10,801 bases of DNA from a virus (taxonomy: Duplodnaviria > Heunggongvirae > Uroviricota > Caudoviricetes): the IMG/VR virus record IMGVR_UViG_2778261086_000004. One strand, 5' to 3'. Within the stretch, counting starts at the first letter, position 1. Every line of letters starts with the position of its first letter. A program made the translations under genes and the position numbers. Below the pieces are notes generated by a model. The model searched no databases. It was not told the DNA's origin and saw only the letters and a list, made by a program, of their open reading frames with translations. This document shows, piece by piece, positions 1 through 10,801 of the stretch.

Positions 1-675
1 ATGTTAATTTTCCAGATTGCCAATAAGCACCTCAGCAAAACTGTTTACTGCAAAGGTGGCAGTGATGGCGGTTCAAAAGCCCAGGCACGCGCAACTGAAA
101 AGGGCATCGAATTGCAACGTGAAATGTGGCAGACGAACATGCAGAACCTTGCACCGTTCACGCCACTCGCTCAGCAGTACGTATCAGAGTTGCAAAATCT
201 TTCCTCTCTTCAGGGGCAAGGTCAGGCTCTTAACCAGTATTACAACTCTCAGCAGTATAAAGACCTTGCAGGGCAGGCGCGCTATCAGAGTCTGGCAGCA
301 GCAGAGGCAACGGGTGGATTAGGCTCTACAGCAACAGGAAACCAGTTAGCAGCAATCGCACCTACACTCGGTCAAAACTGGCTGTCAGGTCAGATGAACA
401 ACTACAACAATCTGGCAAATATCGGCCTTGGTGCTCTTACAGGTCAGGCAAATGCCGGACAGAACTACGCTAACAACGTCAGCCAATTGTATCAACAGCA
501 GGCGGCAGCATCTGCGGCGAATGCTAACCGACCATCAGGACTGCAATCAGCCTTGGGAGGTGCCATGAGCGGTGCGGCATCAGGGGCGATGATTGGCTCT
601 GTGGTGCCAGGAATAGGTACGGCTGTTGGCGCTATTGGTGGCGGCATTATCGGTGGTCTTGGATCATTGTTTTAA
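1..675 (+). CDS. P22 gp7-like ejection (internal virion) protein; Gln/Ala/Gly/Asn-rich; N-terminus may lie at or just beyond the window edge
   Basis: 224-aa ORF ending TAA at 673-675, directly upstream of two ORFs whose sizes match P22 gp20 and gp16 (P22 gp7 is about 229 aa from memory). Low-complexity composition; assignment by synteny and size, not alignment. Confidence 0.6.
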   Translation: MLIFQIANKHLSKTVYCKGGSDGGSKAQARATEKGIELQREMWQTNMQNLAPFTPLAQQYVSELQNLSSLQGQGQALNQYYNSQQYKDLAGQARYQSLAAAEATGGLGSTATGNQLAAIAPTLGQNWLSGQMNNYNNLANIGLGALTGQANAGQNYANNVSQLYQQQAAASAANANRPSGLQSALGGAMSGAASGAMIGSVVPGIGTAVGAIGGGIIGGLGSLF

Positions 676-684
676 GGTGGGAAT

Positions 685-2097
685 ATGGCTACTTGGCAAC
701 AAGGAATCAACTCAGGCGGCTTTCTTGCTGGTATCGGTGGGCAAAACTCAAATGCGCCAAAGGCAAGTGATGTAAGTGAGGCGTTGGCCTATATTCGCCA
801 GAACAACGAAATGGAGCGCTCAGGTCGCAATAACATCGGCCTTCAGGCGTTGCAGGGGCTTGGTAGTGTCGCTCAAACATATCAAGCCGCAAAGCAACAG
901 GAAGCGGATGCTGCATTCCAAAAAGAATATGCGGCAGCCATCCAGTCAGGTGATCGGCAGCAGGTGCGAGATCTGATGACCAAATATCCTGGTCAATTAG
1001 AGAAGATTCAGTCTGGTATGAAGTGGGCAGACGAAGACCAGCGCAATTCTATCGGCACCTTAGCGGCTGGCGCACGCCTTGCTGCCTCGTCTCCAGAAGC
1101 AATGCAATCATGGCTGCAAAACAACGCCAAGGAACTGACTCGCGTCGGTGTTGACCCTAATAACGTTGCTCAGATGTATCAGCAGAATCCTTCAGGATTT
1201 GGTGAGTTTGTTGATCACCTTGGAATGGCTGCGCTTGGTCCGATTGATTACTTCAATGTTCAGGACAAGATGGTTGGTCGTGAGATTGACCGAGGCAGGC
1301 TGGCAGAGACAATCCGCAGCAATCAGGCTGGCGAGGCACTTCAGGCGAGAGGGCAAAACCTTTCCTATCAGTCAGCAATGACTGGGCACAATATCGCAGC
1401 ACAACGTTTGGCTCTGGATCAGCAAGAGTTCGGGTTTAAGATGCAGCAAGCGCAGGAAAAGGCTCAGCAGTTGATTAGCGAAGCACCTAAGCTGTCAGTA
1501 AACATGGAAAAAGGCATCGAGACGGCTGTAAACAATGCCACAGCATCATCAAACTCAGCCAATTCCATGAGTGCGCTTGCTCAACAGTTTAGAGCAGAAA
1601 AACCAACGACAGGTTTGTTCGGTAACGCACAGAACATGTTCGCAAAACTTACCGGAAGCGATACGACATTGCGTGATTTGCGCATTCGCCAAAATGCCCT
1701 TGTTAACAGTCAGGTTCTTAAATTCCTACCTCCCGGCCCAGCAACGGATAAAGACGTTGAGATCGTTCGACAGGGTGCGCCAACTGACATGGATAACCCT
1801 GAGACGGTCGCAAGATGGCTTGATGCAATGGCAAACCTTGAGCGACGAAACGCGCAGTTTAATGAGTTTAAAGCCGAGTGGATGAGCGCGAATGGCAACC
1901 CTGGACAATCGCGTAATGGCGGTCAGATATTGGGGTTGGATGTTAAAAAAGGTGAATCATTGGGGAGTGCCGTTAAGCGGTATATGTCAATGAATACTGA
2001 CGCAGCGCCAGCACAAGATTCGACACCTTCAGGAGAACCACGGAATCAGGTTGGATCATATACCTCAAAATCAGGCATTCAATTTACGGTGGAATGA
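685..2097 (+). CDS. P22 gp20-like ejection protein
   Basis: 470-aa ORF (P22 gp20 is about 471 aa); SD-like AAGGTGG at 674-680 before ATG 685; stop overlaps the next start (ATGA at 2094-2097), indicating translational coupling. Confidence 0.7.
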
Positions 2098-3923
2098 TGA
2101 AAGTAACTGCAAACGGTAAGACATTTACCTTCCCTGATGGTACGAGCACGGAAGATATTGGCACCGCCATTGATGAGTATTTTGCTGGTCAGGCTGTTCA
2201 GCAAAAAACAGTTAATCAGGACAATAATGCACCAACACGGGAAGAACCATCATTGATGCAACAAGCTGGCGATTGGCTCACTGGTGGTCAAAGTGCAGGG
2301 CAAATTGCAGAACAGGCTGGTCGTGGTCTGGTAAACATACCATTTGACGTATTGCAGGGTGGCGCAAGTCTGATTAATGCAATCAGTCAGGGGCTTGGTG
2401 GGCCAAAAGTATTGGATGATGTCTATCGTCCAGTCGATAGACCGACAGACCCTTATGCGCAAGCTGGAGAAACAATTGGCGGGTATTTAGTTCCAGGAGT
2501 TGGAACGGCAGGAAGCATGGCTATTGGATCACTGGCAGAGGCCGCAAATCAGAAAGGCGATTTCGCACAAAATGCAGCTAAAAATGCCGGAGTTAACCTT
2601 GCCGCTCAGGGGGTTCTTTCCGCAGCCGCAAAGGGAATAGGGCGTGGAATAACGGCTATAAAAGGTGATATTGCGCCAGAAGTGGCGAAGAAAATTGCCA
2701 CATCAGAATCGATGGGCGTGACACCAATGACATCTGATGTAATCCCGCCGAAAAATGCTTTCACTCGTGGCCTTACTCAGGATGCTGAGGGGGCTTTGCT
2801 CGGGACAGGATCAAAGAGAGCGGAGCAGTATGCAAAAAGAAGTCAGCTAGTTAAAAAACAGCTTGAGAAATATGGTGAATATAGCCCATCAGTTGTTGTT
2901 GACGATCTGTATGGTTCTCTGAAGTCAAGGAAGGATTCGGCCGGAAGCGTTATTGAAGACATTACAACCAAAATGGGAGACACACCTGTTGACACATCAA
3001 AATCTATTAAGGTTATCGACAACGTACTTACAAGAGCTAACAGGCTTGGGAAAGTGGCAAATAAGAATTTGATTCGCGGGTTATCCGATTTGCGAGAAGA
3101 ACTTGCTAAACCAGATATAGATTTTGGTCTATTGAGAGAGTTGCGGTCAGCCTTGAGGGAAAGTATTCAGGGAGATGCCATGGTTTTTCCTAATAGCGCG
3201 AAAGCCTCAACTGATGCCGTGGAGAGGGCAATGGGGGCAGATTTGAGGAATAACGCAGCGCGGTATTTGGGGGCTGGAGAGGCCGCCAGATACGTCAAAG
3301 CAAACTCTGACTACTCCAACGTCTTCAATAAAGTTCTCAATAAAAGGATTGCGAATAATCTCAACAAAGCTAAAAAAGAGTTTACTCCAGAGCTAATAAA
3401 CAGCGTTGTATTCAGCAGAAAACCATCAGATATTAAGAGGATATGGCCTACTCTTAGTGAAGATGGAAAGAACGCTATGCGTGCTGCTTATATCAGCAAG
3501 ATTGCAGAAAAAGCAGGAGACTCGCCAACAAAATTTCTTACCGAGTTAAATAAGTTGAAGTCGCAATCTGACGGTCAGATCTATAACACGATATTCAGTG
3601 GGAGACACATGAAAGAGCTTGATGCTCTTCATGAAGTTCTACAGCAAACAGCAAGGTCGGACACCGCAAATGTAGTAACTCAGACGGGGCAATCACAAGC
3701 CAACAGGATAAGGACGATTGGCGCAACTGCGACTCTTGGGGCAACACTGGCGCTTGAATCTGGTTTCGGTGCAATGATGCGCCTGTATGAGTCCAAAGCA
3801 ACGAGGAATGCGCTCTTACGTCTGGCAAACACTAAAGCTGGAACGCCAGCCTATGAAAGAGCGCTGAATAACGCTGCGAATGCCATCAGGCCGCTGCTTG
3901 CCACTGAGGCAACACAGCAGTAA
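2094..3923 (+). CDS. P22 gp16-like ejection protein
   Basis: 609-aa ORF, the same length as P22 gp16; start overlaps the stop of the preceding gene; last gene of the ejection-protein trio in P22-like gene order. Confidence 0.7.
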
Positions 3924-3940
3924 CTAAATGCCATGGATGG

Positions 3941-4228
3941 CTATTTTTTAGTGTAATAATCATCAAAATCGCAAGAAACAGATATCACAAAACCTGAAGT
4001 CATAGAAAAAGACAGGGTTTCACATGCCTTTCCGGCTTGATGGTATGCATTGATGCCACCGTATACGGATTCTCTTGATGAAAACAATGATTTTTCACCG
4101 TTTTTTTCTACAAGAATATGCCCATCTGAATCATTAATAAACCAAACAGAAATAGAGGAGCTTTCGCCAAGGAATGTTCTGTTGAATACCATGGGGGATT
4201 TACCCTTGACAACATTTTCTGCGCGCAT
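3941..4228 (-). CDS. Hypothetical protein, 95 aa, no recognised domain
   Basis: Minus-strand ORF whose ATG (4228-4226) lies 2 nt after the TGA of the upstream minus-strand small ORF (TGAttATG). AT-rich region; sequence looks protein-like but I recognise no homolog. Confidence 0.4.
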   Translation of the reverse strand: MRAENVVKGKSPMVFNRTFLGESSSISVWFINDSDGHILVEKNGEKSLFSSRESVYGGINAYHQAGKACETLSFSMTSGFVISVSCDFDDYYTKK

Positions 4229-4230
4229 AA

Positions 4231-4389
4231 TCAGCTCAGCATTTTTTTGCTATTTTTTTGTTCTGTATAGATTTTGTCTGCCACAAAATAAACAATGGCA
4301 ATGGCTAACAAAGATAGGGAAATCAGCAATGCCTTTTTAATCAATTTTTTGGCATCCCTGTAAATCTCAATTGATAATTTTTCACTCAC
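4231..4389 (-). CDS. Hypothetical small single-pass membrane protein (about 52 aa) from a GTG start
   Basis: Strong SD AGGAGG (rc of 4395-4400) 5 nt upstream of in-frame GTG (4389-4387). Predicted TM helix ALLISLSLLAIAIVYFV flanked by Lys-rich segments. The longer 124-aa reading (4231..4605) overlaps the plus-strand gene and its N-terminal part looks non-coding. Confidence 0.35.
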   Translation of the reverse strand: MSEKLSIEIYRDAKKLIKKALLISLSLLAIAIVYFVADKIYTEQKNSKKMLS

Positions 4390-4419
4390 ACCAACCTCCT
4401 TAGTTTTGAGCAGGATACC

Positions 4420-4785
4420 ATGAAAAAAGTTAACATTGGAAACGTACCAAAGATGCTCGTTCCGCTTTTTGAGAGCGGTACAATTGTGTTTTGTAGAGAC
4501 TTTCCAGAATGGCAACGCCTGCATCAAAAACTTGGCGTTGACGTGCAGGACTCGGACGCCAACGGAGCGTCTCATACAATGAGCAGCGAGAATGGTGTTT
4601 TGCATGTGATAGGTGTGTTCAATGGCAAACTATCTACTATTGCCCATGAGTGCGCTCACATGGCATTCGATATCTGCTCAAGGGTAGGTGTTGATGTTGA
4701 ACCAGGAAGAGCCAACGAGACTTACTGCTACTTAATGAGCAGGCTTGTTGAGTTCTGCGAGCGACATATCAAAAAGCCGGAGTGA
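4420..4785 (+). CDS. Hypothetical protein, 121 aa, with HExxH (HECAH) zinc-metallopeptidase-like motif
   Basis: ORF with AGGA at 4412-4415 before ATG 4420; stop TGA sits in the loop of a bidirectional terminator hairpin. Motif IAHECAHMAF in a hydrophobic context resembles a zincin active-site helix; no family assigned. Confidence 0.55.
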   Translation: MKKVNIGNVPKMLVPLFESGTIVFCRDFPEWQRLHQKLGVDVQDSDANGASHTMSSENGVLHVIGVFNGKLSTIAHECAHMAFDICSRVGVDVEPGRANETYCYLMSRLVEFCERHIKKPE

Positions 4786-4798
4786 CCCGGCTTGATTA
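4774..4798. terminator. Bidirectional intrinsic terminator between convergent genes
   Basis: Stem aagccgg (4774-4780), loop agtgac, stem ccggctt (4787-4793); A-run upstream and T-rich tract downstream (gattattactttttgc), so it can terminate both strands. Confidence 0.5.
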
Positions 4799-4978
4799 TT
4801 ACTTTTTGCTGTCTGGAGTTCGCTTATCCAATACCCAGCCATGACCTGGCTTTGTTGTTGGCGGAAGTCTTTCGTTGTCCCTGACGGTGGCAAAATTGTC
4901 CTTCTTACCACCGCGTGGCCCAACTTCCTGGTATATTCCGCCGTTTTTCCCTGTATTTTCACCTGGTTTTTTCGCCAT
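4799..4978 (-). CDS. Small YjzC-like protein (59 aa from MAKKPGENTG...)
   Basis: In the 64-aa ORF 4799..4993 the likely start is the internal ATG at 4978-4976, preceded by GAGGT. Pattern KPGE..G.NGGIY.EVG..G...LPPTT..G.W resembles the YjzC-like small-protein family as I recall it. Confidence 0.55.
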   Translation of the reverse strand: MAKKPGENTGKNGGIYQEVGPRGGKKDNFATVRDNERLPPTTKPGHGWVLDKRTPDSKK

Positions 4979-5014
4979 GATATACCTCAACATACACCCG
5001 TTATTGGGCGATTA

Positions 5015-5043
5015 AATATTGATCTCATTTTATAAGTAGTCAA
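5015..5043 (-). promoter_or_regulatory. Putative sigma70-type promoter for the YjzC-like gene
   Basis: On the minus strand: TTGACT (rc of 5038-5043), 17-bp spacer, AATATT (5015-5020), about 35 nt upstream of the ATG at 4978. Sequence inspection only. Confidence 0.25.
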
Positions 5044-5070
5044 TATGGCCCAGGTAAATGCAAAAATTAA

Positions 5071-5092
5071 CCCACCTTCAGGTGGGTTTTTT
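5071..5092 (+). terminator. Intrinsic terminator (cccacc-ttca-ggtggg plus T6)
   Basis: Perfect 6-bp GC-rich stem with 4-nt loop followed by TTTTTTGT; an A-rich run upstream gives some bidirectional potential. Confidence 0.55.
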
Positions 5093-5144
5093 GTACAAAT
5101 CCTTCAGCCAGTACATAACTACTGACAGATAACCAACGCAACGA

Positions 5145-5167
5145 CCCAGCTTCGGCTGGGTTTTTTT
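5145..5167 (+). terminator. Intrinsic terminator (cccagc-ttcg-gctggg plus T7)
   Basis: 6-bp stem, tetraloop ttcg, followed by TTTTTTTAT; second of two tandem terminators upstream of the tailspike gene. Confidence 0.55.
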
Positions 5168-5173
5168 ATGCCC

Positions 5174-5193
5174 AAAATTCACCGTGTCCACGC
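5174..5193. repeat. Copy 1 of a 20-bp direct repeat (AAAATTCACCGTgtCCAcGC)
   Basis: Matches 5285-5304 (AAAATTCACCGTagCCAtGC) at 17 of 20 positions, about 111 bp apart, flanking the 23-bp palindrome. Confidence 0.4.
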
Positions 5194-5216
5194 TTAGGTA
5201 ATGAGCTTGAAGGAGA

Positions 5217-5239
5217 GCACTACACAAAAAGTGTAGTGC
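5217..5239. promoter_or_regulatory. 23-bp perfect palindrome GCACTACAC-AAAAA-GTGTAGTGC; candidate operator or RNA structure
   Basis: 9-bp perfect inverted repeat with 5-bp A spacer about 100 bp upstream of the tailspike start; no T-tract on either side, so it is unlikely to be a terminator. Confidence 0.4.
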
Positions 5240-5284
5240 AAAAAGCGAACAAAATAACTTCCTAAAAAGTTGTTTTATCACAAA

Positions 5285-5304
5285 AAAATTCACCGTAGCC
5301 ATGC
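5285..5304. repeat. Copy 2 of the 20-bp direct repeat
   Basis: See copy 1; lies about 30 bp upstream of the tailspike start codon. Confidence 0.4.
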
Positions 5305-5336: not shown

Positions 5337-7103
5337 ATGACAGATTCGATAAATGCCAATGTTGTAGTGAGTATGCCTTCGCAACTCTTCACTATGGCGC
5401 GTTCTTTTAAAGCCGTTGCCAATGGAAAAATTTATATCGGTAAAATTGATACTGACCCGGTAAATCCAGAAAACCAGATTCAGGTTTATATGGAGAACGA
5501 AGACGGCTCTCACGTTCCTGTTTCGCAACCAATCATCATTAACGCTGCTGGTTATCCGGTATATAACGGACAGATTGCAAAGTTCGTTACCGTACAGGGA
5601 CATTCAATGGCTGTGTATGACGCATATGGCACACAGCAGTTCTACTATCCAAACATTCTCAAGTATGACCCGGACCAGTTCCGGCATGAGCTAGAGGGAG
5701 AGTTTGCAAGCGGGGCATTCCCTGAAACAGTAAAGTATAAGTATGGATTACCATCTGTTGTTGATGGTGCTGTCTTCAGGAATGTACAAGAAAAGCTGGA
5801 TGATTTTGTATTTTTGGAAGACTTTGGTGGCAAAGACGATTCTGGAATAACAGATAATAGCATAGCCTTTCAGAAGGCATTCGCTTCAGGCGCAAGAAAA
5901 ATTCACTTGAAAGGTTCTGGCATATATGGAATGAAGACCAGAGACATTGAGCTTCCAGCAAAATATGAAATTATTGGTAATGCAAAAAATCCAGAGATTA
6001 AATATCTAGGTTCTGATTCAACCTTCACTATGTTTACCCTTACAGGGTCTGGCCCGGCTTCTAGTCAGTGGAAACAGGGTGGCATATTCCGAGATGTAGT
6101 CATATCATCCGACGTGCTGATTAACTGGATTGTTTGTCGTCATGTCCAGAACTTAGAGTTTGATCGGGTGTTTTTCTATAACGCACAAACTACTATGAAC
6201 AACTACCATTACTTTAACTTCTTCCGGTGCGAACGTTGGGGTAGTCCATTCTTGGGGCGTGCGGATTTAAATACTGTGGAGTTCATCAGCGAATCACCTA
6301 AGTTTCTTATGTGTTTCAGTTCTAACTCTCCGATTGACGTATGGGATACCGCCGATTTATATATCAGCCAATGTACGATGTTTGTTGGAGATTACGCGGT
6401 AAGGACACGCACAACACTTGGTGGGATGGGTGGAACAGACCAATTCGCGGGTTATCCGGTTATAATTTCAAATAGCGTTTTCGATGCCATCAACGGCCCT
6501 GCTTTCGATATGGAGAGTCTAGCTTACGCTACCATCAGCGGTAACATTATTAGTGCTGGGAGGCCGAACAATGCTCGTGGGATACATATTAAAGGTGCTA
6601 GAAACCTGGCATTTACGGGAAATACTATCACCTACTGTGGTGAGTTTGGTATGGTGTTGGAAAATGCTGAACAATGCTCTTTGTCGAATAATATATACAA
6701 CGGAAATAAGACTGGCGGGCTATCGTTGGTAAATTGCAAAGAGGTATCTGTCATTGGCGGTGCTATGGGTACATCTTATATCCGGGGTGGTTACTACGTG
6801 CAACCACTGGGGATTACAGACCCCGGCGATAACTGTAACGGCATAACCATCAATGGCGTTTCTTTCGATAGCGATATGACAACCAAGATTTACCTTAATA
6901 CATCGGAAGAGCGCAAAAACCGTATTATAGCTTGTCTAGGTGTTAATGATACTCCGACGACTTATCAGAACAGGGGGTCTACCGCGCAGCGCCCTACAGC
7001 ACCAGTCAGTGGGCAGATGTATTATGATACAACGCTAGGTCTTCCAATATGGTATAACACAGTATCATCTGAATGGAAGAGGGCGGATGGTACAAGTGTA
7101 TGA
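5337..7103 (+). CDS. Tailspike protein: P22 gp9-type N-terminal head-binding domain fused to a divergent beta-helix receptor-binding domain
   Basis: 588 aa; GGAG at 5325-5328. The first roughly 110 residues ([12 protein letters not shown]...[26 protein letters not shown]...[13 protein letters not shown]...LKYDPDQ) closely match the P22 tailspike N-terminus from memory. The remainder has beta-helix-like repeats (ISGNII, FTGNTI, LSNNIY) but is not P22-like. Confidence 0.9.
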
Positions 7104-7134: not shown

Positions 7135-8601
7135 TTAATTGCAGTTGAATGTAATGTTTTTATCGTAAACAAAAATCTTCTTATCTCCGACGTCAATAAC
7201 CTTTGATGGATTACCAATCTCTTTAATTGTTATATTTCTCATAACCTCATCATCTGTAATTATGAAATTTCCTCCGCGCTCATACCAATAGTTTTTTGAC
7301 AACCATTTATTGCATGCAAGTATATTCAAACCTCGGTTTACATCAATCGGAGCAATTGATATGTCTCCATCTATACTTGCTGATGAAGCAAACCAGAAAG
7401 ATGCATACCCGTTTGTGAGGTTATTCTGCCTTACAGTGTGTTTTATCTGATTTATAATATCATTAGAATTGTCTTTTTTTTCATGCATATAAATAGAACA
7501 AAAGAGAATAAATGTTGTAACAACCCCTAATGCGATGAATTTCCACCCTCTGGAGTTGTTAGATCTGCCAATAACAACAGGTGCTAGTATGAAAAATGGA
7601 ACGATATATCTTATAGTCCATTCATCTATTGGACGGTTACTTGCAAGGTATGCTGGTATCATTATAATACAAGCTATACATATAGCCATATTGACCATGG
7701 AGGTTTTGAATATTTCCTTTACTGACATTGCAACTAATATAAGAAGTAAAATCATTACAACAAAACAAAAAACAGAAATAAGCGCTGTAATATCAGAAGG
7801 TGGTTTGCCAAAGAAGAAAGCTCCACTGTATAGGAGGAATCCTTTTACGAATAAGTATAAATTATTCAGGATATCATCAAATGCAACAAATGTTGGATCT
7901 GGAACGCCTGGCAAAATGTACCAGTTATGAGCTCTTGCGTACATGGTCATAATTTTTGATGCAACATATGCAAATATAGTTGCAACTAGTATGATCAGAT
8001 TTTTTTGGCTTTTGGTTTTTACTATAAAAACCACTGATGATATTGCTACTGGTGCAATAATGAGTAGCTTTATGATGTCATCACTGAAACAAGCTAGAAC
8101 TAACACTAAAATATAAAGAGATAGAGAAATTAACGATCTTGTTTTGGAAAAATTGTCTAACATTATGAAGCAAAACAACATGGATACATATGTGCCGACA
8201 TGTATCACAGGTATTAATACGTTTAATACTGCAAACCCAGAAGGCAGCGCAACGCAAAATGAAATGGCCCATAACGATGAAAGCCTTTCTTTTGAAAGAT
8301 AAAATGTCATCAATGTAACCATTGAATACATAATTGCCGGTATGCAGTATGCTTGGTACTGTCCGTACCAGAATACCTTTGAAGCAAGCCCGTACCATAT
8401 TATGTCTGTAAAATAGAATGATACTGTAGAGAGATACCATCCACTAAGCGTCCAATTTCCGTCCGCAATGTCCTTACCCTCAAGAAGTCCAGAAACAGCA
8501 TCCGAACTTGGCAAAATCTGTTTTGAAATCGAGGCGTAGAAGAAAGTCAAGAATATAAATCCAATGATATATATGGCTGTTTTTTTTATATTTAAAGTCA
8601 T
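7135..8601 (-). CDS. gtrC: GtrC-family serotype-specific O-antigen glucosyltransferase (polytopic membrane protein)
   Basis: 488-aa, markedly AT-rich ORF directly downstream of gtrB (TAA, 1 nt, ATG), with many hydrophobic segments; position and architecture typical of the type-specific third gene of gtr operons. Specificity cannot be assigned. Confidence 0.8.
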   Translation of the reverse strand: MTLNIKKTAIYIIGFIFLTFFYASISKQILPSSDAVSGLLEGKDIADGNWTLSGWYLSTVSFYFTDIIWYGLASKVFWYGQYQAYCIPAIMYSMVTLMTFYLSKERLSSLWAISFCVALPSGFAVLNVLIPVIHVGTYVSMLFCFIMLDNFSKTRSLISLSLYILVLVLACFSDDIIKLLIIAPVAISSVVFIVKTKSQKNLIILVATIFAYVASKIMTMYARAHNWYILPGVPDPTFVAFDDILNNLYLFVKGFLLYSGAFFFGKPPSDITALISVFCFVVMILLLILVAMSVKEIFKTSMVNMAICIACIIMIPAYLASNRPIDEWTIRYIVPFFILAPVVIGRSNNSRGWKFIALGVVTTFILFCSIYMHEKKDNSNDIINQIKHTVRQNNLTNGYASFWFASSASIDGDISIAPIDVNRGLNILACNKWLSKNYWYERGGNFIITDDEVMRNITIKEIGNPSKVIDVGDKKIFVYDKNITFNCN

Positions 8602-8602
8602 T

Positions 8603-9517
8603 TTACTTATCCTTTAGAATGTATCTTGGTCGTTGCTTAACTTCAACATAAATTCTTCCTATATACTCTCCAAGAACTCCTATGCCTATTAACTGAACTC
8701 CACCAAGAAACAATATTGATACAATGATAGAAGGGTAACCTGGAACACTATTTCCAAACATCAATTTATCAGCAATCATCCATGCTCCATAAAGGAATGA
8801 TAAGGTTGCCACAAACAGGCCTATATAAGTCCACATGCGCAAAGGGAAAGTAGAAAAGCTAGTGATCCCTTCCAGCGCTAAGTTCCAGAGCTTCCATCCA
8901 TTGAACTTTGTGCTTCCTGCAACGCGTTCTGCTCGCGCATATTCTACGACATCGGTTCGACCACCAACCCAGCTCAGCACACCCTTCATAAACAGGTTTC
9001 GTTCTGGCATGAGCTTAATGTTTTCTACTACTTCGCGAGACATGAGCCGGAAGTCGCCAACATTTTCTTCTATCTTAGGGTTGCTGATTTTGTTATGAAG
9101 TTTATAGAACCACTCAGCAGATTTACGCTTCAGCCTGCTGTCAGTGGAGCGGTCAGAGCGTTTAGCCAGAACCATATCTGCACCGGCCTGCCATTTCTCT
9201 ATCAAGTGAGGAATAACTTCGATAGGGTCTTGCAGATCAACGTCAATCGGGATAATTGCCTCCCCGGTAGCATGGTCCAGACCTGCGAACAGGGCGGGTT
9301 CTTTGCCGAAGTTACGTGTGAACGACAGCGAAACCACAAGCGGGTCGGCAACAGCAAGCTCGTTGATAATTGATTCTGTAGCGTCTTTGCTGCCATCGTT
9401 TATGAAGACTATCTCGACTTCATGCTGCTGAAGCCCTTCAAATTCGCGCACGGTTTTATAAAAAATAGGTATCGTGGCCTCTTCGTTAAAGACCGGAACG
9501 ACTAAAGAAATTTTCAT
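8603..9517 (-). CDS. gtrB: Bactoprenol glucosyltransferase GtrB (GT2 family)
   Basis: 304-aa protein beginning [13 protein letters not shown]..., with the DxD region (IPIDVDLQD) and C-terminal TM helices; near-identical in pattern to Shigella/Salmonella phage GtrB as recalled. ATGA overlap with gtrA. Confidence 0.92.
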
Positions 9518-9876
9518 TTCGCATCCCTAAAGACAATGAACTTTGAATAGACGAAACCGCACACCAGGCTGATGGCGGAGAAGGTGACAAGAGTTATCAT
9601 CGGGGGAAGTGCGCATCTATCAGCAGCCCATCCAACAGTAGCACTGAGTGTTCCCATGAACCCGACATATAACATGTAGCGCATCGTTGTAGTTGATGCT
9701 TTGAATGTGAATTTTGCATTCGCGAAGAAGCTAAAACTCACAGCCACAACGAAACCTGCGAAGTTTGCCAGAGCCTGATTGGTATGTGCGGCATAGATAC
9801 ATACACCAAAAACCACCCAGTGTATAAGTGTGTTCAGCACACCAATCGAGGTGTACCTTGCAAATATATTTAACAT
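9514..9876 (-). CDS. gtrA: Bactoprenol-linked glucose translocase (flippase) GtrA
   Basis: 120-aa small membrane protein ([24 protein letters not shown]...[13 protein letters not shown]) closely matching GtrA of serotype-converting phages as recalled; first gene of the gtr operon. Confidence 0.92.
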
Positions 9877-10324: not shown

Positions 10325-10801
10325 TTAACTAAACATCGCAGTAATCGAGGCGCTTGCCAGAGAGTGGAAATGAACGTTAAACCCGACCATCGCGCCGCTG
10401 GCACCTTCATCGACATCAATACGTTCTATATCCAGCGCGTGAACGGTAAAAATGTAGCGATGAGTTTCGCCTTTCGGCGGTGCTGCGCCATCGTACCCGG
10501 TTTTACCAAAGTCGGTACGCGTCTGCAAAACGCCGTCTGGCATTGCTACCAGACCAGAGCCAAACCCTTGCGGTAATACGCGGGTATCAGCGGGTAAGTT
10601 AACAACTACCCAGTGCCACCAGCCGGAGCCGGTTGGCGCATCCGGGTCGTAGCAGGTGACAACAAAACTTTTCGTTCCCGCAGGAACATCATCCCACGCC
10701 AGATGCGGTGAAATATTATCGCCATCGTAACCCATGCCGTTAAAGACATGACGATGCGGCAATTTATCGCCATCGCGCAGATCGTTACTGATGAGTTTCA
10801 T
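10325..10801 (-). CDS. ybhB: Host PEBP/RKIP-family protein YbhB (complete, 158 aa)
   Basis: ORF translation MKLISNDLRDGDKLPHRHVFNGMGYDGDNISPHLAWDDVPAGTKSFVVTCYDPDAP... matches E. coli YbhB as recalled; ybhB is the gene beside attB-lambda on the bio side, transcribed toward the att site, as seen here. Confidence 0.9.
   Translation of the reverse strand: MKLISNDLRDGDKLPHRHVFNGMGYDGDNISPHLAWDDVPAGTKSFVVTCYDPDAPTGSGWWHWVVVNLPADTRVLPQGFGSGLVAMPDGVLQTRTDFGKTGYDGAAPPKGETHRYIFTVHALDIERIDVDEGASGAMVGFNVHFHSLASASITAMFS

What the first reader, a model, noticed from the sequence alone, without database searches (positions are those of the whole stretch)
3941..4389. Translationally coupled pair: small single-pass membrane protein plus 95-aa soluble protein
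A strong AGGAGG-N5-GTG start gives a 52-aa protein with one predicted TM helix, and its stop is 2 nt from the ATG of a 95-aa ORF (TGAttATG). The pair is divergent from the HExxH gene with only about 30 bp between the two starts, so promoters must overlap coding sequence. A small membrane protein with a partner at a sieA-equivalent position fits exclusion or abortive-infection systems, or holin-like or toxin-like modules, but this is speculative.
Basis: inference. Interest (0 to 1): 0.45.

Follow-up and report, generated by a model that had tools for sequence, protein, structure and literature searches.

The report
One prophage gene split by frameshift
The two "coupled" small genes are the two halves of one 149-codon prophage membrane-protein gene, broken by the loss of a single A in a run of eight; it is an ordinary pseudogene of an uncharacterised gene that sits where phage P22 keeps its exclusion gene sieA.

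Summary
They are not two genes. In every intact relative, one 149-codon ORF runs from the same GTG to the same stop. This holds for 5 complete E. coli genomes, 6 IMG/VR contigs, hundreds of contigs in the protein collection, and relatives down to 26% identity in other P22-like prophages. The window has A7 (4242-4248) where the intact allele has A8. The whole ORF is under purifying selection (dN/dS 0.11-0.17), and the "start" Met of the 95-aa ORF is not conserved. The A7 allele is real and inherited: 13 contigs, and the 6 that were fetched and compared are 100% identical to the window. It lies in a heavily deleted prophage remnant. At least four other independent ±1 slips in A-runs have broken the same gene elsewhere. 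The intact protein has a short N-terminus, one TM helix, a stalk and a beta domain with two invariant cysteines. It is unrelated to SieA but occupies the sieA slot with P22's sieA promoter, RBS and GTG, or follows mnt directly. A lysogen-expressed envelope or exclusion role is plausible but untested. Interest is low.

The parts
3941..4389 (-). The whole disrupted gene: a frameshifted copy of a 149-codon gene (intact form, for example WP_053270946.1). It is 449 nt here and 450 nt when intact.
   Evidence: five complete E. coli genomes carry one 450-nt CDS here; the only length difference is one A.
4242..4248 (-). The frameshift site: an A7 run (T7 on the + strand). Intact alleles have A8, or A7 followed by GC. 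Two loci of another prophage have A9.
   Evidence: The simulated -1 slip reproduces the window's 52-aa product exactly.
4231..4389 (-). The 5' fragment (52 codons). Residues 1-49 are native (cytoplasmic IYxDxKK motif, TM helix, start of the stalk). The last 3 codons (MLS) and the TGA are out of frame.
4279..4332 (-). Codons 20-37, the single predicted transmembrane segment (ALLISLSLLAIAIVYFVA).
   Evidence: KD19 2.34; next best elsewhere 1.14 or less. (helix).
3941..4228 (-). The 3' fragment (95 codons), equal to residues 55-149 of the intact protein: the end of the stalk helix plus the beta domain with invariant W83, D87, G120, C123 and C140. Its ATG is an internal Met55 that is not conserved.
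4395..4400 (-). Shine-Dalgarno AGGAGG, 5 nt upstream of the GTG. It is identical to the RBS of P22 sieA.
4420..4450 (-). The equivalent of the annotated P22 PsieA promoter. It lies inside the 5' end of the divergent hkcC-like ORF. The 91 nt upstream of the GTG differ from P22 at 2 positions.
   Evidence: PMC10883804: 85 bp upstream is enough for single-copy sieA function.
4253..4259 (-). A second A7 run in the gene. It slipped (-1) in another isolate's allele (P0022).
4101..4107 (-). A third A7 run. It slipped (+1) in other isolates (P0014, 98-aa truncation, 4 contigs).
3924..3940 (.). The constant 17-nt spacer between the convergent stops of gene 16 and this gene. It holds a conserved short hairpin, GCCATCCATGGC.
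   Evidence: read directly; the terminator scan did not call it.

Best explanation
Shown: window 3941-4389 (minus strand) is one gene, not two. It is a copy of a conserved 149-codon gene of P22-like prophages in which one A was lost from an A8 run, leaving A7 at 4242-4248. The most likely cause is replication slippage. Translation from the GTG now ends after 52 codons. The remaining 95 codons stay open only because an internal Met55 lies 2 nt past the new stop. The allele is inherited in one prophage lineage, which is itself a deleted remnant (int-xis-lar joined to gp7-gp20-gp16-X-hkcC-tailspike-gtrCBA). Inferred: the split is a loss of function. Even if the 95-aa piece were made by reinitiation, it would lack the membrane anchor that should place its beta domain, with two invariant cysteines, in the periplasm. 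Inferred, with a probability of about 0.4: the intact protein is an inner-membrane-anchored protein expressed in the lysogen, N-terminus inside and C-terminus outside. Expression would come from the sieA promoter and RBS here, or from mnt read-through in other prophages. It would act at the envelope as an alternative to SieA, HK620 hkcB and other cassettes in this slot. The most plausible role is interference with DNA delivery by superinfecting P22-like phages.
For: One ORF in relatives: 5 of 5 complete E. coli genomes; 6 of 6 IMG/VR loci; the intact 149-aa forms P0006, P0023 and P0007 are on 250, 95 and 57 contigs, against 7 for the split pair; 12 relatives at 26-39% identity, all 146-155 aa and spanning both halves. 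Indel location. Selection: (dN/dS 0.11-0.17 overall, 0.06-0.15 in the N half and 0.14-0.25 in the C half, at dS of about 1.2-2). Structure: (helix 2-61 is continuous across the junction; beta domain 67-146; pLDDT 75.5). Real allele, not a read error: (13 contigs from separate samples; the 6 fetched and compared are 100% identical to the window over up to 10,228 nt). Remnant prophage. Recurrent slips: (A9 in L010 and L014; P0021, P0022, P0014). Slot and expression: homology with P22 begins exactly at the GTG, with the same RBS and PsieA region; the same slot in Salmonella and in distant hosts; the gene starts about 20 nt after mnt in L024-L029; PMC10883804 (sieA lies between genes 16 and 9; 85 bp upstream is sufficient). 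Topology: (one TM segment; an invariant Cys pair).
Against: No experiment or expression data were available. The TGA-tt-ATG geometry could allow reinitiation, and rare -1 ribosomal or +1 transcriptional slips on A7 would restore the native frame exactly, so residual activity cannot be excluded. The charges flanking the TM segment are nearly balanced (6 K/R before it, 5 after), so the N-in/C-out topology rests mainly on the conserved Cys pair. The functional assignment rests on position and architecture only. There is no hit in Pfam, PHROGs, PADLOC, NCBIfam or the PDB, and no isolated phage carries the gene.
Confidence: 0.88

Rival explanations
1. A true two-gene, translationally coupled module: a 52-aa membrane peptide and a 95-aa soluble partner that evolved to be made separately.
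For: The literal geometry (strong SD, GTG, TGAttATG). The split pair is present in 13 contigs and is annotated as two hypothetical proteins in NCBI records.
Against: All 13 contigs belong to one lineage; the 6 fetched and compared are 100% identical to the window. Every other allele and every distant relative is a single ORF. Met55 is not conserved. The last 3 codons of the 52-aa ORF are out-of-frame sequence. The predicted helix spans the junction.
Confidence: 0.02
2. The gene is broken in the DNA but still expressed at a low level. A +1 transcriptional slip (A7 to A8 in the mRNA) or a -1 ribosomal slip of tRNA-Lys on AAA-AAA-A restores exactly the native ...SKKNAELIM... frame, so the lysogen keeps a little full-length protein.
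For: Read directly, a -1 re-pairing on the A7 run gives AAU GCU GAG CUG AUU AUG, which is the native sequence. Frameshift mutations in A-runs can be partly rescued by transcriptional slippage, and SieA-type exclusion works at low expression (PMC1088944; PMC10883804).
Against: Efficient transcriptional slippage in bacteria sets in at around 9 nt, sometimes 8 (PMC1088944). A7 is below that. There is no stimulatory element and no conservation of a shifted layout. The carrier is a decaying prophage remnant.
Confidence: 0.07
3. The poly-A runs are a contingency (phase-variation) switch that turns the gene on and off in prophage populations.
For: Three tract lengths (A7, A8, A9) occur at one run, and there are at least five independent ±1 slips at three runs in natural isolates. 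The A9 loci differ from their A8 counterpart by 0 and 6 substitutions.
Against: The number and length of the A-runs are what the Lys-rich protein and local codon usage predict (P = 0.14-0.45 for the number of runs of 7 or more; P = 0.40-0.59 for a longest run of 8 or more). The runs are absent or displaced in diverged members. Broken alleles are a small minority. Runs of 7-8 A are short for a dedicated switch. The A9 calls come from two short-read assemblies and could be assembly errors.
Confidence: 0.04
4. A sequencing or assembly error in a homopolymer: the real genome has A8 and an intact gene.
For: Homopolymer length errors are common on some platforms. The difference is a single base.
Against: The same A7 is in 13 independently assembled contigs from different samples and sources (NCBI GCA_053341725.1 and GCA_017003635.1, and several SRA runs). 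The 6 that were fetched are otherwise 100% identical to the window.
Confidence: 0.02

Closest known systems
P22 SieA (superinfection exclusion A; phrog_7745; Leavitt et al. 2024, PMC10883804)
   Same: The same genomic slot, convergent with gene 16 and between genes 16 and 9. In this window the same promoter region, RBS and GTG start codon as well. Small, membrane-bound, and expected to be expressed from the prophage.
   Different: No sequence similarity (BLASTP E = 33; no phrog_7745 hit, whereas P22 SieA scores 3.7e-108). One TM helix instead of three. A 95-residue all-beta C-terminal domain with a Cys pair. No FxRYPxEAxxFNK motif. Function untested.
HK620 hkcB (gene of unknown function in the same slot)
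   Same: It occupies the identical position next to hkcC and gene 16 in a phage whose hkcC-to-tailspike region is about 97% identical to the window. It shows that the slot is a cassette-exchange site.
   Different: An unrelated sequence: homology to HK620 stops at the GTG, and a tblastn search with the 149-aa protein finds nothing in any phage record.
Single-pass, membrane-anchored phage exclusion proteins with a periplasmic domain (for example HK97 gp15 and T4 Imm/Sp); recalled from the literature and not tested here
   Same: The predicted architecture (a short N-terminus, one TM helix, an extracytoplasmic domain) and prophage or early expression. A plausible mode of action at the inner membrane or periplasm against incoming DNA.
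   Different: No sequence or fold match was obtained. The resemblance is in architecture only.
Homopolymer frameshift pseudogenes and slippage-rescued genes (Baranov et al. 2005, PMC1088944)
   Same: A ±1 change in an A-run splits an ORF into two adjacent ORFs that annotation pipelines call as separate hypothetical proteins.
   Different: There is no evidence here of programmed use. The run is only A7, and the shifted layout is not conserved.

Membership tests
SieA superinfection-exclusion proteins (types A-C) | Detectable sequence similarity to SieA type A, B or C (phrog_7745) | tested here: not met
   BLASTP against P22 SieA gives E = 33. PHROGs gives no SieA hit for the 149-aa protein or its relatives, whereas P22 SieA scores 3.7e-108.
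SieA superinfection-exclusion proteins (types A-C) | Three (types B and C: four) transmembrane helices and the cytoplasmic motif FxRYPxEAxxFNK (PMC10883804) | tested here: not met
   There is one hydrophobic segment, residues 20-38. The motif is absent from the alignments.
SieA superinfection-exclusion proteins (types A-C) | Located between the gene 16 and gene 9 homologs of a P22-like prophage | tested here: met
SieA superinfection-exclusion proteins (types A-C) | Blocks DNA injection by P22-like phages | not testable with these tools
   Needs plating or potassium-efflux assays with the intact 149-aa allele.
Translationally coupled two-gene module (including toxin-antitoxin-like pairs) | The two ORFs are separate and both conserved as separate ORFs in relatives | tested here: not met
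   All intact relatives are single ORFs. There are no PADLOC or Pfam toxin or antitoxin hits.
Translationally coupled two-gene module (including toxin-antitoxin-like pairs) | The start codon of the downstream ORF is conserved | tested here: not met
   Met55 is Leu in L016, and other residues occupy that column in distant relatives.
Holins | A small TM protein encoded in the lysis cassette next to an endolysin | tested here: not met
   The gene lies between the ejection-protein genes and the immI/tailspike region in every locus. No holin family hit was found.
Programmed frameshift or transcriptional-slippage genes | A slippery run conserved together with a two-frame layout in homologs; typically a run of 9 or more (PMC1088944) | tested here: not met
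   The layout is single-frame in homologs. The run here is A7. The runs are not conserved in diverged members.
Phase-variable contingency loci | Tract-length polymorphism among isolates | tested here: met
   A7, A8 and A9 occur at one run, and slips occur at two further runs.
Phase-variable contingency loci | The tract is enriched or conserved beyond compositional expectation | tested here: not met
   Synonymous resampling gives P = 0.14-0.45 for the number of runs of 7 or more, and P = 0.40-0.59 for a longest run of 8 or more. The runs are absent or displaced in L015, L016, L023, L024 and L027.
Uncharacterised 149-aa family (for example WP_053270946.1, WP_032342900.1) | N-terminal IYxDxKK motif, one TM helix, and invariant W83, D87, G120, C123, C140 | tested here: met
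   The window encodes all of these, 99% identical to the intact allele, but across two frames.

The most novel reading that the evidence does not exclude
The intact 149-aa family is a previously unrecognised type of superinfection-exclusion protein, unrelated to SieA. Its anchor is in the inner membrane and its disulfide-bonded beta domain is in the periplasm, where it could interfere with the gp20/gp16 DNA-delivery conduit of incoming P22-like phages. P22-like prophages swap it with sieA and hkcB at one cassette site, and its A-runs make it easy to lose.
Probability: 0.3. Interest if true: 0.5.

Novelty: new member of a known kind. Interest (0 to 1): 0.22.

Why it matters
As described, a coupled membrane-plus-soluble pair, the finding does not exist, so two "hypothetical proteins" in public annotation are really one pseudogene. 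That is worth knowing for annotation, but it is ordinary biology. The modest value lies one step back. The intact gene is a conserved, selected and uncharacterised membrane protein. It takes the place of sieA, uses sieA's own expression signals, and is kept in the same slot in prophages down to 26% identity. That makes it a concrete and cheap candidate for a new exclusion function, testable with the assays already set up for SieA.

Tried and rejected
The following led nowhere or were rejected.

- **Family libraries.** Pfam, PHROGs, PADLOC and NCBIfam scans of the intact protein and of the 95-aa fragment gave only sub-threshold noise.
- **Solved structures.** A PDB sequence profile search found nothing.
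- **Domain-only model.** It had pLDDT 61.5, too poor to search with.
- **Phage records.** blastn and tblastn against 50,697 records found no match.
- **GTDB species-representative genomes.** No relative was found.
- **Plus-strand ORF 4050-4340.** Rejected, because it is not open in relatives.
- **The 124-aa N-terminal extension.** Rejected, because stop codons interrupt it in all other contexts and it would overlap hkcC.
- **The 160-aa neighbour in L027-L029 as a co-resident SieA.** Rejected: it is an unrelated lipoprotein.
- **A-run enrichment as a sign of a programmed switch.** The test was negative.

Full report
**Setting.** The window is the right-hand end of a P22-like prophage.
- The ejection-protein genes 7, 20 and 16 lie at 1-3923 (+).
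- A short variable region follows, then the tailspike (5337-7103, Head_binding plus beta-helix) and gtrC/B/A on the minus strand (7135-9876).
- A host PEBP/YbhB-like gene closes the window (10325-10801).
- The hkcC-to-tailspike stretch is about 97% identical to phages HK620 and P22, but that homology stops abruptly at window position ~4381-4387.

**Observation.**
- AGGAGG (4400-4395), a 5-nt spacer and GTG (4389-4387) open a 52-codon ORF that ends with TGA at 4233-4231.
- After 2 nt, ATG (4228-4226) opens a 95-codon ORF that ends at 3941.
- There is one hydrophobic segment, residues 20-38.
- The divergent 121-aa HECAH ORF starts 30 bp away, at 4420.

**What it really is.** A blastn search with 3925-4395 found five complete E. 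coli genomes. Each matches with a length difference of one base, and each is annotated with a single 450-nt, 149-aa CDS.
- The alignment places the difference in one homopolymer. The window reads AGC-AAAAAAA-TGC (A7, 4242-4248). Four relatives read A8.
- The fifth relative is about 90% identical and reads AAAAAAA-GC, which is the same total length.
- Translation of the relatives gives one protein, from the same GTG to the same stop.

Three further results show that the single ORF is the native state.
- **Frequency.** In the 15-billion-protein collection, the intact forms are on hundreds of contigs: P0006 on 250, P0023 on 95, P0007 on 57, and others. They come from E. coli, E. albertii, E. marmotae, Salmonella and Edwardsiella. 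The window's 52-aa and 95-aa products are on 7 contigs. All six IMG/VR copies are intact.
- **Distant relatives.** An exhaustive profile search found 12 more relatives at 26-39% identity. All are 146-155 aa and cover both halves in one chain.
- **Selection and structure.** Pairwise dN/dS between diverged alleles is 0.11-0.17 over the whole ORF and is low in each half separately. Met55, the supposed start of the partner gene, is Leu in L016 and varies in the distant relatives. The AlphaFold model (pLDDT 75.5) has one continuous helix, residues 2-61, that passes through the junction, followed by an eight-stranded beta domain.

The plus-strand ORF is not open in relatives, and the 124-aa extension hits stop codons in every other context.

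**Is the frameshift real?** Yes.
- An exact look-up of the 95-aa product found 15 contigs. Thirteen carry A7.
- The six A7 contigs that were fetched and compared are 100% identical to the window over up to 10,228 nt. This is one prophage lineage sampled repeatedly in independent assemblies.
- In those contigs, integrase, Xis, Lar, a DUF551 fragment and a truncated gp14-like fragment abut gene 7 directly. The carrier is therefore a deleted, non-inducible remnant, where gene decay is expected.

**Recurrence.** The other two contigs (L010, L014) carry A9 in a different prophage, the ExPEC-XM type. They are otherwise identical or nearly identical to their A8 counterpart.
- Three other truncated products in the collection are reproduced exactly by simulated ±1 slips. 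P0021 is +1 at the same run in the second allele type. P0022 is -1 at the run at CDS position 131. P0014 is +1 at the run at position 284.
- So at least five independent homopolymer slips have hit this gene.
- This is not a designed switch. Synonymous resampling shows that the number and length of the A-runs are what a Lys-rich protein with local codon usage predicts: P = 0.14-0.45 for the number of runs of 7 or more, and P = 0.40-0.59 for a longest run of 8 or more. The runs are also missing or displaced in diverged members.
- A/T runs are known to be hypermutable, and efficient transcriptional slippage needs about 9 nt (PMC1088944). Rescue on A7 should therefore be weak at best.

**The intact gene.** It has no hit in Pfam, PHROGs, PADLOC, NCBIfam or PDB sequences. 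It has no significant fold match apart from one unnamed phage protein, and it is in none of 50,697 phage records.
- **Architecture.** It has a 19-residue N-terminus with the conserved motif IYxDxKK, one TM helix, a helical stalk, and a beta domain of about 80 residues. W83, D87, G120 and exactly two cysteines are invariant. The invariant Cys pair suggests a disulfide and hence a periplasmic domain. This is an inference, because the flanking charges are nearly balanced.
- **Slot in this window.** P22's annotated sieA start codon, RBS and PsieA promoter align with the window's GTG, AGGAGG and 4420-4450, with 2 mismatches in the 91 nt upstream. The homology breaks exactly at the start codon. On the other side, a constant 17-nt spacer with a conserved hairpin separates the gene from the gene 16 stop. 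It is therefore a clean ORF-for-ORF cassette replacement of sieA.
- **Slot elsewhere.** HK620 carries a third, unrelated gene (hkcB) in the same place. Relatives at 26-30% identity in other hosts sit in the same slot and start about 20 nt after mnt on the same strand. This implies expression in the lysogen.
[quoted passage not shown] The present protein fails every sequence and architecture criterion for SieA. It may nevertheless work in the same arena. I put that at roughly 0.3-0.4. It is untested.

**Verdict.** The two-gene interpretation is not supported. The feature is a frameshift pseudogene of an uncharacterised, conserved membrane-protein gene in the sieA slot, so it is ordinary as found. 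The intact family is a reasonable candidate for a new exclusion protein.

Noticed in passing
L007:10203-12288 (beyond the window's left end); also L009 and L013: In the lineage that carries this window, integrase, Xis/Exc, Lar, a DUF551 fragment and a truncated gp14-like (DUF2824) fragment lie directly next to gene 7. The prophage is therefore a remnant that has lost its replication, lysis and head genes, yet the gp7/20/16, tailspike and gtrABC ORFs are still intact.
   Followed up: partly
window 4420-4785 (+): The divergent 121-aa ORF with HECAH is the HK620 hkcC homolog (phrog_1365, E = 1.4e-39; function unknown). It is not annotated in the P22-pbi record, and the annotated PsieA promoter lies inside its first ~30 nt. 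Whether the HExxH is a true metal site was not examined.
   Followed up: partly
window 4774-5162: Three terminator-like hairpins (4774-4793, 5069-5088, 5143-5162) and the 64-aa orf59a/HkcD homolog (4799-4993, phrog_3202) correspond to HK620's tORF59A, tMNT and tANT remnants. The mnt-arc-ant immI region has been deleted here, as in HK620. The 74-aa ORF at 5078-5302 (-) overlaps these remnants and has no family hit.
   Followed up: partly
L027:6480-6962, L028:6483-6962, L029:3064-3546: In more distant P22-like prophages, a 160-aa lipoprotein (lipobox LLAGC, phrog_6067, function unknown) sits between the homolog of this gene and gene 16. It is a second envelope protein in the exclusion slot.
   Followed up: partly
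L003:4642-5666, L005:4836-5703, L015:4051-4918: Prophages that carry the intact gene have different toxin-antitoxin-like cargo right beside the slot: a YafO-family toxin with an upstream 188-aa gene, or SocA/Panacea-domain pairs. This suggests a defence or accessory hotspot between gene 16 and the tailspike.
   Followed up: no
window 7135-8601 (-): The gtrC-position gene (488 aa, many predicted TM segments) has no Pfam hit and a low G+C content (0.34, against 0.44-0.49 for its neighbours). This is consistent with a serotype-specific, horizontally acquired O-antigen-modifying glycosyltransferase.
   Followed up: no
window 3924-3940: A short hairpin, GCCATCCATGGC, lies between the convergent stops of gene 16 and this gene. 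It is kept in all alleles, including the Salmonella ones; L016 has GCCATCCGTGGC. It is probably a shared bidirectional terminator, but the consensus scan did not call it.
   Followed up: no
BFVD entry A0A6G5Y7X6: An unnamed 138-aa viral protein has the same overall fold (TM-score 0.61-0.65, 16% identity) as the model of the 149-aa protein. It may be a remote relative in an isolated phage.
   Followed up: no
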